A stretch of 64,000 nt of DNA from sequence record MT446412.1, one strand, 5' to 3'. Shown here piece by piece: positions 3,633-47,756 of this stretch. Source of the DNA: Escherichia virus TH41. The position numbers were made by a program, and so were the translations under genes. Under the pieces are notes generated by a model, which saw only the letters and a program-made list of their open reading frames with translations, had not been told where the DNA came from and made no database searches. Each line of letters opens with the position of its first letter. The stretch's first letter is position 1.

Positions 3633-4610
3633 ATGGCAACAGTAATTAACGGTTTGACAGTCAACGAATCCGACTTCATGTGGGAACAAAAATACCGCCC
3701 AGGTACATTATCAGAGTGTATTCTCCCGGCCCATGATAAAGAAACATTAGAGGCGATTGTTAAAAAAGGTTTGATTCCTAACTTGATTCTGGTCAGTAGT
3801 TCCCCTGGTACTGGTAAGACAACAGTTGCAAAAGCTATGTGTGCAGATACGAATTCTGATATGCTGTTTGTTAACGGCTCCGATTGCCGAATTGACTTTG
3901 TGCGTAATGAATTGACTCGCTTTGCATCATCCAAATCAATCGAAGGTCGCCGCAAGGTAATCGTTATCGATGAGTTTGACCGTGCAGGTCTGGCTGAATC
4001 ACAACGGCACCTCCGTAGCTTTATGGAAGCTTATTCGAGTAACTGTTCAATCATTATGACCGCGAACAATATTGATGGCATCATCACTCCGTTGCAGTCT
4101 CGTTGTCGCGTCATTAAGTTCGGTGAAGCAACTCCGGCTGACCAGACTACCATGATGAAAGAGATGATTCATCGTGCAGTTGCGGTATGTAAAAATGAAG
4201 GCGTTGAAATCGAAGACCTGAAAGTTGTTGCTGCTCTGGTTAAGCATAACTTCCCGGACCTGCGTAAGACAATTAACGAGCTTGACCGTTACTCTGCAAA
4301 GGGTGTTATCGATTCTGGTATTCTGAGTATCGTGACAAACAATCGCACGCCAATTGATGATGTGATTGATGCCCTTAAGGACCGTAATTTTAAAGTTCTC
4401 CGTGGTCTGGCTCCTAAGCATGCAAATGATTATTCAAGCTTCATTGCAAAGCTGGCTGATGAAATGTATGGCAAACTGACTGGTGCAAGTATCATCCGCA
4501 TGTATGAGATTGTAGGTGAGAATAATCAGTATCATGGCATTGCGGCCAATACCGAAGTTCACTTGACTTATCTGTTTGCTCAACTGGCTGGGGAAATGAA
4601 ATGGCTGTAA
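3633..4610 (+). CDS. 44: clamp loader large subunit gp44
   Basis: ATG at 3633 after AGGAAAA RBS; P-loop SPGTGKTT; AAA+ clamp-loader blocks near-identical to T4 gp44. Confidence 0.93.
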   Translation: MATVINGLTVNESDFMWEQKYRPGTLSECILPAHDKETLEAIVKKGLIPNLILVSSSPGTGKTTVAKAMCADTNSDMLFVNGSDCRIDFVRNELTRFASSKSIEGRRKVIVIDEFDRAGLAESQRHLRSFMEAYSSNCSIIMTANNIDGIITPLQSRCRVIKFGEATPADQTTMMKEMIHRAVAVCKNEGVEIEDLKVVAALVKHNFPDLRKTINELDRYSAKGVIDSGILSIVTNNRTPIDDVIDALKDRNFKVLRGLAPKHANDYSSFIAKLADEMYGKLTGASIIRMYEIVGENNQYHGIAANTEVHLTYLFAQLAGEMKWL

Positions 4611-22671: not shown

Positions 22672-22968
22672 ATGTACTACGCATATGTGCTGGTTCACAA
22701 AGATAAAGATGGTTTTGAACGCCCATTGGAGTATGATGGAAAGGTTACCTTATACACCACAAAACCGGGCGCAGAGTATGAACTTGCCAACTATTTATAT
22801 ACTACAAACCGCTATTTACGCATGGGACGTATTGAAACACGGTATACTCCCAGAAAATGGTGGTTTGATAAGCGGGAAACAAAAACTGTTTTTCCTACTG
22901 AAGAACACGCACGAGAATTGAAATTAGTTTTAGATACTTTATATGTTAAGCGAGTAAAATTGGCATGA
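22672..22968 (+). CDS. hypothetical protein (about 98 aa; T4 dda.1 position)
   Basis: ORF 22669..22968; ATG at 22672. Confidence 0.5.
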   Translation: MYYAYVLVHKDKDGFERPLEYDGKVTLYTTKPGAEYELANYLYTTNRYLRMGRIETRYTPRKWWFDKRETKTVFPTEEHARELKLVLDTLYVKRVKLA

Positions 22969-24293
22969 TTAAATTTGAAGACTTGAACACAGGACAAAAA
23001 GAAGCTTTTGATTATATCACTGAAGCTATTCAGCGACGTTCAGGGGAATGTATCACTCTGAATGGTCCAGCTGGTACAGGTAAGACCACTCTGACAAAAT
23101 TTGTCATTGACCATCTAGTGCGTAATGGAGTTATGGGAATTGTGCTTGCTGCGCCAACTCACCAGGCGAAAAAAGTTTTATCTAAATTGTCTGGTCAAAC
23201 CGCGAATACAATCCATAGTATCCTGAAGATTAACCCGACCACATATGAAGACCAAAACGTTTTTGAACAACGCGAAATGCCTGACATGTCAAAATGCAAT
23301 GTTCTGGTTTGTGATGAAGCAAGTATGTATGACGGGTCTCTGTTTAAGATTATTCTTAACTCTGTTCCTGAATGGTGTACTATTCTTGGGATTGGTGATA
23401 TGCACCAGCTGCAGCCAGTTGACCCAGGAAGCACACAACAAAAGATAAGCCCATTCTTTACGCATCCTAAGTTCAAACAGATTCATCTGACTGAGGTCAT
23501 GCGAAGCAATGCTCCTATCATTGAAGTGGCGACAGAAATTCGTAATGGTGGTTGGTTCCGTGACTGTATGTATGATGGTCATGGTGTACAGGGTTTCACC
23601 TCACAAACCGCTTTAAAGGATTTCATGATAAACTATTTCAGTATTGTAAAAGATGCTGATATGTTGATGGAAAACAGGATGTATGCGTACACGAATAAAT
23701 CAGTTGAAAAACTGAACAATATTATTCGTCGCAAGCTCTATGAAACGGATAAAGCATTTTTACCGTATGAAGTCCTGGTTATGCAAGAGCCACACATGAA
23801 AGAGCTGGAATTTGAAGGCAAGAAATTCAGCGAAACCATTTTTAATAATGGTCAGTTGGTTCGCATCAAGGATTGCAAATACACTTCCACCATTCTCCGT
23901 TGTAAAGGCGAATCGCACCAGTTAGTGATTAATTACTGGGACCTGGAAGTTGAGTCAATTGATGAAGATGAAGAATATCAGGTTGACCGCATTAAAGTTT
24001 TACCAGAAGACCAGCAACCAAAATTCCAGGCATATCTGGCTAAAGTTGCTGACACATACAAACAGATGAAAGCCGCTGGTAAACGTCCGGAGTGGAAAGA
24101 CTTCTGGAAAGCTCGCCGGACCTTCTTGAAAGTTCGTGCTCTTCCGGTCAGTACAATTCACAAGGCCCAGGGCGTTTCAGTGGACAAAGCATTCATCTAT
24201 ACTCCATGCATCCATATGGCCGAAGCTTCATTAGCGAGCCAGTTGGCTTATGTAGGAATCACACGAGCGAGGTACGACGCATATTATGTATAA
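22965..24293 (+). CDS. dda: DNA helicase Dda (SF1)
   Basis: 442 aa; Walker A GPAGTGKTT, Walker B VLVCDEASM; size of T4 Dda. Confidence 0.9.
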   Translation: MIKFEDLNTGQKEAFDYITEAIQRRSGECITLNGPAGTGKTTLTKFVIDHLVRNGVMGIVLAAPTHQAKKVLSKLSGQTANTIHSILKINPTTYEDQNVFEQREMPDMSKCNVLVCDEASMYDGSLFKIILNSVPEWCTILGIGDMHQLQPVDPGSTQQKISPFFTHPKFKQIHLTEVMRSNAPIIEVATEIRNGGWFRDCMYDGHGVQGFTSQTALKDFMINYFSIVKDADMLMENRMYAYTNKSVEKLNNIIRRKLYETDKAFLPYEVLVMQEPHMKELEFEGKKFSETIFNNGQLVRIKDCKYTSTILRCKGESHQLVINYWDLEVESIDEDEEYQVDRIKVLPEDQQPKFQAYLAKVADTYKQMKAAGKRPEWKDFWKARRTFLKVRALPVSTIHKAQGVSVDKAFIYTPCIHMAEASLASQLAYVGITRARYDAYYV

Positions 24294-24531
24294 AGTACAT
24301 AAAGAAGATTTAGATACTCTTATCTATGGTATTCAGGACGCGGTTGAATTTTTCGAAGATAATCCGACTATCGTCGTGCAGGGTAATTACGTTTTACTGG
24401 AACTGAATCTTATTCGGAAACGTATGGCCGCGATTGAATATTTTAACAATGAAGAGCCAGGGATTTTTATCTCCGACTATGTTGCTGGTGAAATTCAGAA
24501 ATTAAAAGAGATGTGCGATGGTTGCTGGTGA
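24286..24531 (+). CDS. hypothetical protein (81 aa)
   Basis: ORF whose 3' end lies in the tandem 40-bp duplication. Confidence 0.5.
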   Translation: MYKVHKEDLDTLIYGIQDAVEFFEDNPTIVVQGNYVLLELNLIRKRMAAIEYFNNEEPGIFISDYVAGEIQKLKEMCDGCW

Positions 24532-24560
24532 AATTCAAAAATTAAAAGAGATGTGCGATG
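24481..24560 (+). repeat. perfect tandem duplication, 2 x 40 bp with 1 mismatch
   Basis: GTTGCTGGTGAAATTCA(G/A)AAATTAAAAGAGATGTGCGATG repeated head-to-tail; second copy ends in the dexA start codon. Confidence 0.9.
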
Positions 24561-25241
24561 ATTGATGCTATTATTGACTTTGAAACTCTGGGAAACGGCT
24601 CGAAGGGAGCCGTTATTGACCTGGCTCTGATTACATTCGAATCTGACCCTGCTATTGTGGAATCATTCGAAACCCTGGTTAATCGCGGCAAACGTATCAA
24701 GTTTAGCCTTGAATACCAAAAAGGTAAGCGTCTGTTCGATACAACAACCATGAGTTGGTGGAAAAAGCAATCAGCAGAAGCCCGTGTTAACTTGGCTCCT
24801 TCTGCGCAAGATGTTGATACTCTGACCGGTATCCAACAGGCAATTGATTATCTGAATGGTAATGGAATTAACAAATACGAAAGCCTTATGTGGTGTCGTG
24901 GAATGTCTTTTGACTTCCCGTTGTTTGTTGACCTTATCCGTGACCTACAGCGCAATGAGGGTATTCCCGAGCGTGAATTGAATACATATGGCCTGGAGCC
25001 GGTTGTATTCTGGAACCAGCGAGATATCAGGACAGCAATCGAAGCCCTATCACTCGTCCGTAAGATGTGTGAAACTCCATTACCAAAGGGGGCTTTAGAT
25101 GGATTTGTGGCGCATGATTCGGTGCATGACTGCGCGAAAGATATTTTGATGCTTAAGTATGCCCAGCGCTATGCTCTTGGTTTGGATGAAGTTCCTTCCG
25201 AAGAAGATGCAGACCCGTTATCTTTACCGAAAAAACGATAA
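24558..25241 (+). CDS. dexA: exonuclease A DexA
   Basis: 227 aa as in T4; DEDDh-like N-terminus IIDFETLG. Confidence 0.8.
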   Translation: MIDAIIDFETLGNGSKGAVIDLALITFESDPAIVESFETLVNRGKRIKFSLEYQKGKRLFDTTTMSWWKKQSAEARVNLAPSAQDVDTLTGIQQAIDYLNGNGINKYESLMWCRGMSFDFPLFVDLIRDLQRNEGIPERELNTYGLEPVVFWNQRDIRTAIEALSLVRKMCETPLPKGALDGFVAHDSVHDCAKDILMLKYAQRYALGLDEVPSEEDADPLSLPKKR

Positions 25242-25247
25242 AAAGTA

Positions 25248-25277
25248 GTGTACAAGGCCAATGGAAAGAGACATAAT
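25248..25277 (+). promoter_or_regulatory. early promoter cassette
   Basis: GTGTACA, 17 nt, CATAAT; stem-loop CTCATCA-actac-TGATGAG in leader. Confidence 0.6.
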
Positions 25278-25308
25278 CATCTCATCAACTACTGATGAGG
25301 ATAACAAA

Positions 25309-25566
25309 ATGATTACTTCTTTTGAAATTGGCCAACAATATGAAATGTCTGCTTTTCAAGCTGCTGAAGCAGGTCTGACTGAAGCGTTTGAATGTGCATT
25401 TACAAATATTCGTGGTAAAATCTTTACTGTCAATAAAATTGCGGTATATGATAAAGAAACAGACATGAACAAAGGCATCTACTTGAACGTGTCAAACGCA
25501 AAAGGCCGTCGTGAAATTATGGTTGTACAACCTAACCAACTGGCGATGTTCAATAAGGTTACATAA
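25309..25566 (+). CDS. hypothetical protein (85 aa)
   Basis: ATG at 25309 right after the leader. Confidence 0.5.
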   Translation: MITSFEIGQQYEMSAFQAAEAGLTEAFECAFTNIRGKIFTVNKIAVYDKETDMNKGIYLNVSNAKGRREIMVVQPNQLAMFNKVT

Positions 25567-31027: not shown

Positions 31028-33262
31028 ATGATTTTAGAAACTGAAAAGGAAACAATCCTTGGTAATGGTGCCAAGGCATCAGCATTCACAATCCAGGCAT
31101 CTCCAAAGGTGTTTAAGATTCTGACCAGCGACCTTTATACAAACAAGGTGCGTGCGGTTGTTCGTGAGCTGATTACCAATATGATTGATGCTCATATGCT
31201 CAATGGTTGTCAGGATAAATTCATTGTGCAAGCTCCTGGTGAACTGGACCCACGTTTTGTATGCCGTGACTTTGGTCCGGGTATGAGTGATTTCCAGATT
31301 CGTGGTGATGAAAATACCCCAGGTCTGTATAACAGTTTCTTTGCATCATCCAAGGCTGAATCCAACGATTTTATTGGCGGCTTTGGTCTGGGCTCTAAAT
31401 CTCCGTTCAGTTATACAGAGACGTTTAGCCTGATTTCATATCACGATGGTCAAGTTAATGGTTATGTCGCTTATATGGACGGCGATGGCCCACAGATTAA
31501 ACCAACCTTTAGCGAACCAATGAAACCTGGTGACCGCACGGGGATTGAAGTTGTTGTCCCGGTTGATAGTAATGATTTTGGTAAGTTCCGCTACGAGATT
31601 GCATATATCATGCGTCCATTTGCTGGACTGGCTGAAGTGCAAGGCGTAAGCGAAATTGAATACTTCCCGGAATTTGATGATTATTATGCTCCAGAGCGTA
31701 TTAATTATAGCAGCCCAGAACGTTATGGTCTTTATGCAATTTACGGTGGAATTGTTTATCCAATTGCCGACGGTTATACAAAGAAAACCTGGATGACTGC
31801 CAAAAACGATGTTGTCTTTATTAAGTTCCCGATGGGTTCGTTGGATATTGCACCTTCTCGCGAAGCATTATCACTGGATAAACGTACGGTCGCAAATATC
31901 GTTGAACGTATTGAATCCCTTGATAAGAAAGTCATGGAAGATGATTGTAAGAAATGGCAGGAATCAGAATGTATCCGCCACACGTATCGCGAATTACAGA
32001 GTCTGAGTTATGAAGCTCGTAATTTTCTGAAAGCTCGTAATGCTGAAACGAAATTTACGAAATCGCAATTGACCTTTAACCAGATGTATGAAATGTTCGA
32101 GCTGGACAAAGACCTTATTAATGCCGGGGTTGTCTATGATATCTATAGCACTACCCGTCTGAAACGTCTGCGTAACTCAAGCTCGAACACGAATACTGCA
32201 AGTCTGACGAGCATGTTTGGTATTCAGAATAATACCTTGAACATTGTTATTGACGATGCTAAAGGGCGAATTGCGATGATTCGTGGTATCAGTTCAATGC
32301 TATATGACACCAGCGCGAAAGCCAAAAAGCTCAAAGCATCTGGTAAAGTCCCGACTGTACAAGGTAGTAGTCTATTGTTCGTTGACCCAACCAGCGAAAT
32401 TCAAACACGTCTGATGGTTCAACTTCAAGAACGATTTAAAGGCGATACAGTTAATATCTATCGTACGTCTGAACTGACCGCCCTTGTAAAAGACTGGATT
32501 CCGGTTGCTGACCCGAAAGCGCGCGTTAAGTCAAAGACTCCATCATTGATTCGTTGGACTAAAACTAATGGCAAATGGCAGTCTGTTGAAGAATTTACAT
32601 GTGCAGCTGATGCAGAGGAAATCGATGGTTATGCTGTATTCATTAACCGCAGTAGCATTTCCCCGTTGAATCAAGAATATGGCACCACGACCTTCGGGAC
32701 CCAGACATTGTGTAAACTGGCAAACCTGTTGGAAATCAATGAATTCTGTGTTATTCGTCCACAGCTTCAGAAAAAGATTACCAAGCTGGCGCAGTGTGAT
32801 TGTCTGATTGAAGCTGCAGTCAATCGTTATGTGGAATTGATTGATGCGGTTGATGCGGACCAGTACATTGCCGCTTCAAGCCGTTCGCGTTATTATATTC
32901 CTATCCTGTCTGAATATGCAGAACTGAATTTTATGTTCAAGTATTTTTATGCAAAAGATGTTCAGAAAGATGTGAATACTGACTATGCCGAATTAATGCA
33001 GTTCAATAAGTTCTTTGCTTATAACGCATATAACAGTGGAACAGTTGATAAGACCATGCAGGAAACTCTGGTCCTTTGTAATAAGATTTATGACGACCTG
33101 ACCAAAAACGCTTCGGTAACAAGCGATAAAATGGTTTTTGAATTTGAAAAGAATCACCCGATTGTTTCACACTTTTTATATAACCGTAACGCCATGTCAA
33201 CTGAACAAGTACAGAACGTTGCTCAAATCATGAAGGCCGTGGAAGCGGCCAATAAGGAATAA
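31028..33262 (+). CDS. rIIA: rIIA protein
   Basis: 744 aa; N-terminal GHKL-ATPase-like region; size and position as T4 rIIA. Confidence 0.9.
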   Translation: MILETEKETILGNGAKASAFTIQASPKVFKILTSDLYTNKVRAVVRELITNMIDAHMLNGCQDKFIVQAPGELDPRFVCRDFGPGMSDFQIRGDENTPGLYNSFFASSKAESNDFIGGFGLGSKSPFSYTETFSLISYHDGQVNGYVAYMDGDGPQIKPTFSEPMKPGDRTGIEVVVPVDSNDFGKFRYEIAYIMRPFAGLAEVQGVSEIEYFPEFDDYYAPERINYSSPERYGLYAIYGGIVYPIADGYTKKTWMTAKNDVVFIKFPMGSLDIAPSREALSLDKRTVANIVERIESLDKKVMEDDCKKWQESECIRHTYRELQSLSYEARNFLKARNAETKFTKSQLTFNQMYEMFELDKDLINAGVVYDIYSTTRLKRLRNSSSNTNTASLTSMFGIQNNTLNIVIDDAKGRIAMIRGISSMLYDTSAKAKKLKASGKVPTVQGSSLLFVDPTSEIQTRLMVQLQERFKGDTVNIYRTSELTALVKDWIPVADPKARVKSKTPSLIRWTKTNGKWQSVEEFTCAADAEEIDGYAVFINRSSISPLNQEYGTTTFGTQTLCKLANLLEINEFCVIRPQLQKKITKLAQCDCLIEAAVNRYVELIDAVDADQYIAASSRSRYYIPILSEYAELNFMFKYFYAKDVQKDVNTDYAELMQFNKFFAYNAYNSGTVDKTMQETLVLCNKIYDDLTKNASVTSDKMVFEFEKNHPIVSHFLYNRNAMSTEQVQNVAQIMKAVEAANKE

Positions 33263-47400: not shown

Positions 47401-47756
47401 GAAGTCGATGCACTCTTAGAAATAAGTTCACCACCTTCAGTCATTATCTGACCCGCGGCAATAATATCGCGAGCTACACGAGCAATGCCGGTTAAATTAA
47501 AATCACCAGTTTGGGTAAAAGTACCATTCAGGGTATAATCACCAGTTTGATTGTAATTACCGTTATGAATAACATTACCATCAATATTACCGCCTTTGGC
47601 AAAACCAAGGTCGATAATGGCGCCGGTGTCATCTTTAGTAAAAAGTAAGCGGTCTTTCAGGTTGATAGCCAGTTCACCTTCAGCAAGAACTGTTGGCGCC
47701 GGACGAACGCCGGCAACCTTACTTCTTTTAAATTGTATTTGTTTTAAAGTAGCCAT
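44490..47756 (-). CDS. 37: long tail fibre distal subunit gp37 with C-terminal intramolecular chaperone domain
   Basis: 1088 aa fibrous ORF between 36 and 38; last about 105 aa [14 protein letters not shown]...coiled coil resemble autoproteolytic chaperone modules. Confidence 0.85.

What the first reader, a model, noticed from the sequence alone, without database searches (positions are those of the whole stretch)
24481..24560. Perfect 40-bp tandem duplication at the dexA translation start
GTTGCTGGTGAAATTCAGAAATTAAAAGAGATGTGCGATG is repeated head-to-tail with one mismatch. It duplicates the last 13 codons of the upstream ORF and the dexA initiation region. The upstream ORF now ends ...CDGCW instead of the inferred ancestral ...CDD overlapping the dexA ATG. 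This is a very recent replication-slippage event, possibly a polymorphism or an assembly artefact.
Basis: seen in the sequence. Interest (0 to 1): 0.5.

Follow-up and report, generated by a model that had tools for sequence, protein, structure and literature searches.

The report
Shared 40-bp duplication before phage dexA
A real 40-base head-to-tail duplication sits just before the exonuclease gene dexA of a T4-like coliphage, but it is an old variant shared by about a third of related phages and probably has little effect, so it is ordinary.

Summary
Window 24481-24520 and 24521-24560 are a head-to-tail 40-bp repeat, 39/40 identical (G at 24498, A at 24538), with none expected by chance. The window comes from a Gaprivervirus (a T4-like coliphage of the VR7/SP18 group). 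The repeat copies 13 C-terminal codons of a small ORF (Pfam Phage_T4_Y00H_G) together with the dexA ribosome-binding site and ATG.

Eighteen related genomes and a more distant outgroup have one copy, with the ORF ending ...CDD and an 8-nt ATGATTGA overlap with dexA.

The duplication is not very recent, not private and not an assembly artefact. The same junction occurs in 9 other independently sequenced isolates and 2 independent metagenome assemblies. The copies have diverged in different ways in different lineages. Carriers differ by up to 4.4% in their flanks, and copy number barely follows the flank phylogeny.

Best reading: an old segregating duplication, probably of single origin, moved by recombination and repeatedly collapsed. 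It is probably close to neutral. Both ORFs and the dexA start site survive, and a 15-codon mini-ORF recreates the ancestral stop/start overlap. Interest is low.

The parts
24481..24520 (+). Copy 1 of the 40-bp unit (GTTGCTGGTGAAATTCAGAAATTAAAAGAGATGTGCGATG). It is still part of the small ORF and carries a duplicated SD-like AAAGAG (24505-24510) and ATG (24518-24520).
   Evidence: This copy is identical in all 10 two-copy phage genomes.
24521..24560 (+). Copy 2 of the unit (A instead of G at 24538). It holds the small ORF's new tail and stop (GCW, TGA at 24529-24531), the working dexA SD-like AAAGAG (24545-24550) and the dexA ATG (24558-24560).
   Evidence: Copy 2 is the variable copy among relatives: A18 in 8 genomes including the window, T36 in VR20 and UPEC01, and further changes in L036 and L037.
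24286..24531 (+). Small ORF of 81 aa with unknown function (Pfam PF26837 Phage_T4_Y00H_G, phrog_5263; annotated 'DexA.2-like' in VR7). Its C-terminus is ...EMCDGCW here and ...EMCDD (79 aa) in single-copy relatives. Its ATG overlaps the dda stop by 8 nt (ATGTATAA).
   Evidence: (the phrog_5263 profile of 77 positions is matched up to residue 78).
24518..24565 (+). A 15-codon mini-ORF (MVAGEIQKLKEMCDD*) created by the duplication. It starts at the duplicated dexA ATG and SD, reads copy 2 in the old ORF frame, and ends at the ancestral TGA that overlaps the dexA ATG (ATGATTGA).
   Evidence: translation and distances. Whether it is translated is an inference. Its peptide is not conserved (MAAG... 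in L036, MVVG... in L037).
24558..25241 (+). dexA, the 3'-5' exonuclease A gene (227 aa). It is intact and has the same 40 nt upstream of its ATG as in single-copy alleles.
   Evidence: PF16473, E=4e-16; phrog_255 exonuclease, E=2.5e-74; annotated as dexA in relatives.
22965..24293 (+). dda helicase gene, the first gene of the tightly packed dda / small ORF / dexA string.
   Evidence: PF18343 Dda SH3 domain, E=2e-33; AAA_30.

Best explanation
This is an old, segregating structural polymorphism of the genus Gaprivervirus. A 40-bp segment spanning the end of the small Y00H-like ORF and the dexA ribosome-binding site and ATG was duplicated in tandem. The event most likely happened once, in an ancestor that had the single-copy ...CDD / ATGATTGA arrangement. 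The allele has since been carried onto different flanking haplotypes by the frequent homologous recombination typical of T4-like phages, and it has repeatedly collapsed back to one copy. It persists because it costs little. The small ORF only swaps its last residue (D) for GCW. dexA keeps an identical 40-nt upstream region with its SD and ATG. Ribosomes finishing the small ORF stop 26 nt before the dexA ATG, a distance at which re-initiation is about as efficient as at the ancestral -8 overlap. The new 15-codon mini-ORF also ends in the ancestral overlap. Shown: the repeat, its distribution, the ancestral state, the divergence between copies and the reading-frame consequences. Inferred: single origin, collapse events and near-neutrality.
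For: The repeat is real and non-random. Ten of 28 distinct Gaprivervirus genomes, counting the window, have two copies with the identical junction, and 18 have one. Two-copy contigs were also assembled independently from two metagenomes (L036 and L037), and 81/93-aa ...DGCW proteins occur on many contigs including a metagenome-assembled viral contig. The outgroup at 79% protein identity has one copy...EMCDD and an 8-nt overlap, and the PHROG profile ends at residue 78. Copies differ at position 18 in 8 genomes including the window, at position 36 in VR20 and UPEC01, at positions 2, 9 and 18 in L036, and at positions 5 and 18 in L037. Flanks of carriers differ by up to 4.4%, and each carrier's nearest single-copy neighbour is about as close as its nearest two-copy neighbour. 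Copy number needs 5-7 changes on flank trees, against 8.4 for shuffled labels. M719-6WT.2 has flanks of the window clade, one copy and the A18 variant otherwise seen only in copy 2, which is what a collapse product would look like. There is no microhomology at the exact junction, so identical breakpoints argue for one origin. T4 duplications studied experimentally arise at 6-10 bp microhomologies with different boundaries each time (PMC9391042). The intergenic distance changes from -8 to +26. Measured re-initiation is roughly constant from 0 to 25 nt and falls only below -10 (PMC4538824). Predicted accessibility of the dexA start region is similar in both alleles. No promoter, terminator, Rfam family or T4 late or MotA motif lies in the unit.
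Against: UPEC01 carries the duplication inside a DK-13-like haplotype that begins 4 bp upstream and resumes within about 50-70 bp downstream. A single origin therefore needs a very short conversion patch or crossovers inside the repeat, and a second independent duplication cannot be excluded. Near-neutrality rests on a reporter-based model from E. coli operons and on folding predictions, not on measurements in this phage. A 36% frequency on several continents could also reflect selection. No read-level data were available.
Confidence: 0.72

Rival explanations
1. Recurrent hotspot. The same 40-bp duplication arises repeatedly, for example by misalignment at the imperfect direct repeat ATG(A)TTG(C/A)TG that brackets the unit, and collapses repeatedly, so that copy number flips back and forth within lineages.
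For: Copy number is almost unlinked from flank phylogeny (5-7 changes). Genomes with identical +/-200-bp flanks carry one or two copies. UPEC01 and DK-13 share both flanks but differ in copy number. T4-type phages generate duplications and deletions readily (PMC9391042).
Against: All carriers share exactly the same breakpoints, yet there is no microhomology at the junction (T|G on the left, G|A on the right). Slippage on the nearby TTG or ATG matches would give a different junction base or a 39-bp period. Copy 1 is always the common allele while copy 2 carries the variants. A fresh duplication would instead give two identical copies, and no carrier has identical copies. No 3-copy allele was seen in 28 genomes or the metagenome contigs.
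Confidence: 0.18
2. Selected expression variant. The two-copy allele is kept by selection because it changes DexA dosage (uncoupling from the small ORF, a competing upstream start, a mini-ORF leader) or because the GCW tail alters the small protein.
For: The allele is frequent (10 of 28), geographically widespread and old enough for its copies to diverge. The dexA SD is weak (-2.9 kcal/mol), so DexA output may depend on coupling geometry. All two-copy proteins seen keep the DGCW tail.
Against: The coupling model predicts similar re-initiation at -8 and +26. Folding shows no clear change in accessibility. The mini-ORF peptide is not conserved. The DGCW conservation in L036 and L037 reflects how they were found, by exact protein look-up. 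Repeated loss of the allele in close relatives suggests no strong advantage.
Confidence: 0.08
3. Assembly artefact, or a private and very recent slippage event in this one genome.
For: The copies are nearly identical (39/40), and short tandem repeats can in principle be mis-assembled.
Against: The same two-copy junction with the same G/A difference is present in 7 other GenBank genomes. A second two-copy haplotype occurs in VR20 and UPEC01. Two independent metagenome assemblies also carry two copies. An 80-bp array is shorter than a typical sequencing read.
Confidence: 0.02

Closest known systems
Short tandem duplication/deletion polymorphisms in T4-like phage genomes (recombination- or slippage-generated, as in T4 rII duplications and the dmd-tifA amplifications)
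   Same: Head-to-tail direct repeat in a T4-like genome. It lies in the early region around dda, dexA and motB, which I recall (my own knowledge, not tested here) to be non-essential and deletion-prone in T4. It appears to be gained and lost during evolution, and relatives show both states.
   Different: It is much shorter (40 bp against hundreds to thousands of bp), has two copies only, and has no 6-10 bp microhomology at its boundary. It is a natural polymorphism shared across a genus, not a laboratory-selected amplification.
Translational coupling through overlapping stop and start codons in bacterial and phage operons
   Same: The single-copy allele has the classic arrangement: the downstream ATG and RBS lie inside the upstream ORF, ATGATTGA, distance -8. 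The same geometry joins dda to the small ORF (ATGTATAA). The duplication converts it to a +26 spacing and adds a mini-ORF that restores the -8 overlap.
   Different: Coupling has not been measured for these genes. The published distance dependence (PMC4538824) predicts little difference between the two geometries, so this is a change of architecture without a demonstrated change of output.
Upstream leader peptides (uORFs) that regulate a downstream gene
   Same: The two-copy allele has a 15-codon ORF with its own SD and ATG immediately upstream of dexA and overlapping its start.
   Different: It arose as a by-product of the duplication. Its peptide varies between carriers. No attenuator or terminator structure or RNA family is present. 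Single-copy relatives do without it.

Membership tests
Tandem (head-to-tail) duplication | Two adjacent copies with no spacer, the same orientation, and similarity far above chance | tested here: met
   24481-24520 and 24521-24560, 39/40 identical, 0 expected by chance.
Tandem (head-to-tail) duplication | Derived state: relatives and an outgroup carry a single copy at the same place | tested here: met
   Eighteen single-copy Gaprivervirus genomes, and outgroup loci L032-L035 with one copy.
Assembly artefact | Confined to one assembly and not reproduced in independent data | tested here: not met
   Nine other isolates and 2 metagenome assemblies have the same junction. The window's own raw reads could not be inspected.
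Microhomology-mediated duplication as documented in T4 | A short direct repeat (typically 6-10 bp) at both ends of the duplicated segment, with one copy left at the junction | tested here: not met
   The bases flanking the unit do not match the unit ends (T versus G on the left, A versus G on the right). Only an imperfect repeat, offset by 1 nt, lies nearby (xTTGxTG); compare.
Stop/start-overlap translational coupling | The downstream start codon and its RBS lie within, or overlap the end of, the upstream ORF | tested here: met
   Single-copy alleles have ATGATTGA, d=-8. In the window this holds for mini-ORF to dexA (d=-8) but not for small ORF to dexA (d=+26).
Stop/start-overlap translational coupling | Downstream translation depends on upstream translation | not testable with these tools
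   This needs reporter fusions or ribosome profiling.
Phase-variable contingency repeat | Copy number varies over several states and switches a gene's reading frame or promoter on and off | tested here: not met
   Only 1 or 2 copies were seen in 28 genomes and the metagenome contigs. Both states leave the small ORF and dexA intact.
Regulatory leader peptide / attenuator | Conserved leader ORF coupled to an alternative RNA structure or terminator | tested here: not met
   The peptide differs in L036 and L037. There is no terminator-like site, no distinctive fold and no Rfam match.

The most novel reading that the evidence does not exclude
The two-copy and one-copy states could be a maintained, reversible switch: a duplication/collapse hotspot at the dexA start that lets Gaprivervirus populations toggle DexA exonuclease dosage, or the C-terminus of the Y00H-like protein, through a change in translational coupling. 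Both alleles would then be kept by fluctuating selection.
Probability: 0.07. Interest if true: 0.45.

Novelty: new member of a known kind. Interest (0 to 1): 0.15.

Why it matters
It matters little beyond genome annotation and population genetics of this phage genus. It explains why the small ORF upstream of dexA is annotated as 79/91 aa in some Gaprivervirus genomes and 81/93 aa in others. It gives a convenient PCR-sized marker (a 40-bp length difference) for tracking recombination among these phages. It also offers a natural pair of alleles for testing how a -8 overlap compares with a +26 spacer plus mini-ORF in translational coupling. It does not point to a new mechanism.

Tried and rejected
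(2) The metagenome scan for the unit gave one single-copy contig, and the genome-collection scan gave none.
(4) RNA folding and accessibility of the dexA start region in one- versus two-copy constructs gave no clear difference.
(5) The sigma-70 promoter and terminator scan, T4 late (TATAAATA) and MotA-box motifs, and the RegB GGAG motif found nothing in the unit.
(6) Rfam gave only a sub-threshold chance hit (isrF, 12.9 bits against a 40-bit gathering score) at the locus, and nothing in the whole window.
(7) Literature searches for the Gaprivervirus/VR20 phages found no paper on this repeat. One search was swamped by 'dexamethasone'.
(8) A protein search of the phage collection for named outgroups found only about 33%-identical homologues in CC31-like phages of Enterobacter and related hosts, too distant for a DNA-level comparison. 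The metagenomic outgroup P0004 was used instead.
(10) The substitutions in copy 2 fall at third-codon positions of one frame or the other. I considered whether this shows selection and rejected it: there are too few sites, the variants also exist in single-copy alleles, and L036 and L037 were found by exact protein match.

Full report
**Observation**

The window reads GTTGCTGGTGAAATTCAGAAATTAAAAGAGATGTGCGATG at 24481-24520. The same 40 bases follow immediately at 24521-24560, with one difference: G at 24498 and A at 24538, which is unit position 18. Tandem Repeats Finder reports period 40, 2.1 copies, 95% matches, no indels and score 154. A search allowing 3 mismatches finds exactly these two sites, with zero expected in shuffles. 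It is by far the strongest tandem repeat in the 64-kb window.

**Context**

The + strand carries three closely spaced genes:
- dda helicase, 22965-24293 (Dda SH3 domain, E=2e-33).
- A small ORF, 24286-24531, 81 aa.
- dexA, 24558-25241 (PF16473, E=4e-16; phrog_255 exonuclease, E=2.5e-74).

The small ORF belongs to phrog_5263 and to Pfam PF26837, Phage_T4_Y00H_G. VR7's authors annotated it as 'DexA.2-like'. Its function is unknown.

Megablast places the window in the genus Gaprivervirus, the T4-like coliphages of the VR7/SP18 group, at 92-99.4% identity to 33 records.

**What the repeat does to the reading frames**

- The unit equals 13 codons of the small ORF (VAGEIQKLKEMCD) plus one base. It also contains dexA's SD-like AAAGAG, a 7-nt spacer and the ATG.
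- With two copies, the small ORF runs from copy 1 into copy 2 in a shifted frame and ends ...CDGCW at TGA 24529-24531.
- dexA starts at 24558 and has the same 40 nt upstream as in a one-copy genome.
- The duplicated ATG at 24518 opens a 15-codon mini-ORF, MVAGEIQKLKEMCDD. It ends at the TGA that overlaps the dexA ATG (ATGATTGA).

**Relatives**

I fetched the locus from all 27 distinct GenBank genomes and read the junctions.
- Eighteen have one copy. Their ORF ends ...EMCDD and its stop overlaps the dexA ATG by 8 nt.
- Nine have two copies with exactly the same junction as the window: TH22, TH55, UPEC07, ECML-359, MN01, TH54, TH57, UPEC01 and VR20. These were isolated in the USA, Uganda, Bangladesh, Lithuania and elsewhere.
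- The window's exact 81-aa protein also sits on two independently assembled metagenome contigs, both with two copies (L036 and L037).
- Further ...DGCW proteins occur on other contigs, including a metagenome-assembled viral contig.
- A more distant lineage (P0004, 79% protein identity; L032-L035) has one copy...EMCDD and the 8-nt overlap.
- The PHROG profile ends at residue 78 of the ORF.

The duplication is not an artefact and is not private to this genome.

**Age and history**

Copy 1 is identical in all ten two-copy phage genomes. Copy 2 varies:

| Carrier(s) | Positions where the two copies differ |
|---|---|
| Window plus seven other genomes | 18 (A in copy 2) |
| VR20, UPEC01 | 36 (T in copy 2) |
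| L036 | 2, 9, 18 |
| L037 | 5, 18 |

Flanks of carriers (-1000/+680 bp) differ by up to 4.4%. Each carrier's nearest one-copy genome is about as close as its nearest two-copy genome.

On neighbour-joining trees of the flanks, copy number needs 5-7 changes, against 8.4 for shuffled labels. Genomes with identical +/-200-bp flanks carry either state.

M719-6WT.2 has the window clade's flanks and a single copy. It carries A18, a variant otherwise seen only in copy 2, so it looks like a collapse product. DK-13 (one copy, T36) and UPEC01 (two copies, T36 in copy 2) share both flanks.

The junction has no microhomology: T|G on the left, G|A on the right. Only an imperfect xTTGxTG match lies nearby, one base off. 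Experimentally observed T4 duplications arise at 6-10 bp microhomologies, with different boundaries in each lineage (PMC9391042). Identical breakpoints without microhomology in every carrier, and the absence of any carrier with two identical copies, favour one origin followed by recombination and repeated collapse.

The UPEC01/DK-13 pattern would then need a very short conversion patch. I therefore keep recurrent origin as a live rival, at about 0.18.

**Likely functional effect**

Using the distance definition of Tian and Salis (start minus stop minus 3), the geometry changes as follows:

| Junction | One copy | Two copies |
|---|---|---|
| small ORF to dexA | -8 | +26 |
| small ORF to mini-ORF | not present | -14 |
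| mini-ORF to dexA | not present | -8 |

Their measurements show re-initiation roughly constant from 0 to 25 nt, falling only below -10 and peaking at -4 (PMC4538824). Little change in coupling is therefore predicted.

Other results point the same way:
- The dexA SD is weak (-2.9 kcal/mol), and predicted accessibility of the start region is similar in one- and two-copy constructs.
- No sigma-70-like promoter, terminator, T4 late or MotA motif, or Rfam family lies in the unit.
- The mini-ORF peptide is not conserved (MAAG... in L036, MVVG... in L037).

I conclude the allele is probably close to neutral. This step is an inference, not a measurement.

**Comparison with known things**

This is an ordinary short tandem-duplication polymorphism of the kind T4-like genomes generate and lose. 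It sits at a stop/start-overlap junction of the classic translational-coupling type. It fails the tests for an assembly artefact, a microhomology-mediated T4-style amplification, a phase-variable contingency repeat and a regulatory leader peptide (see the membership table). I found no paper describing it. The sequences themselves are public, and the two protein lengths are already in GenBank.

**Verdict**

Interest is low (0.15). The most novel reading still open is a maintained, reversible dosage switch for DexA, with a probability of about 0.07.

Noticed in passing
window 24286-24293: The dda stop and the small ORF's start overlap by 8 nt (ATGTATAA, distance -8). This is the same geometry as the ancestral small-ORF/dexA junction (ATGATTGA), so dda, the small ORF and dexA form a chain of -8 overlaps in single-copy genomes.
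   Followed up: partly
window 24250-24255: Several GenBank annotations (UPEC07, UPEC01, CJ20, YenM_P8) start the small ORF 12 codons earlier, inside dda (MLESHERGTTHI..., giving 91/93 aa). In this window that extension is closed by a TAG right after the ATG (ATGTAG), and the PHROG profile starts at the shorter ORF's Met. The 79/81-aa start is therefore probably the real one.
   Followed up: partly
L015 (PQ671644.1, Escherichia phage DCP80, 140,978 bp): This record has broken synteny around the locus: rIIA lies next to srd, and 'terminase large subunit' and 'tail sheath' genes lie just after the gene that follows dexA. The genome is also about 30 kb shorter than its relatives. That suggests a large rearrangement or deletion, or a mis-assembly. 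It sits on a long branch in the wide-flank trees.
   Followed up: no
window 47498-47549 and 32013-32048: Two weaker 18-bp tandem repeats: 2.9 copies at 67% matches, and 2.1 copies at 85% matches with indels. They are probably in-frame coding repeats. Not examined.
   Followed up: no
window 24286-24528 (protein): The local Pfam-A scan found no family for the 81-aa ORF. The precomputed annotations in the protein collection assign it to PF26837.1, Phage_T4_Y00H_G. The family may be missing from the local copy, or the score may fall below the filter.
   Followed up: no
window 1-64000: There are no tRNA genes and no Rfam family at gathering threshold anywhere in the 64-kb window.
   Followed up: yes
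L010-L027 versus L001-L009, locus coordinates about 3936-4281 (window about 25261-25566): The small gene after dexA (VR7 gp013-like; called DUF2693 in the EAWsc9 record) is annotated with two different starts among relatives, at 3936 or 3984 in single-copy locus coordinates (101 aa or 85 aa). The window's ORF list gives the 101-aa form.
   Followed up: no
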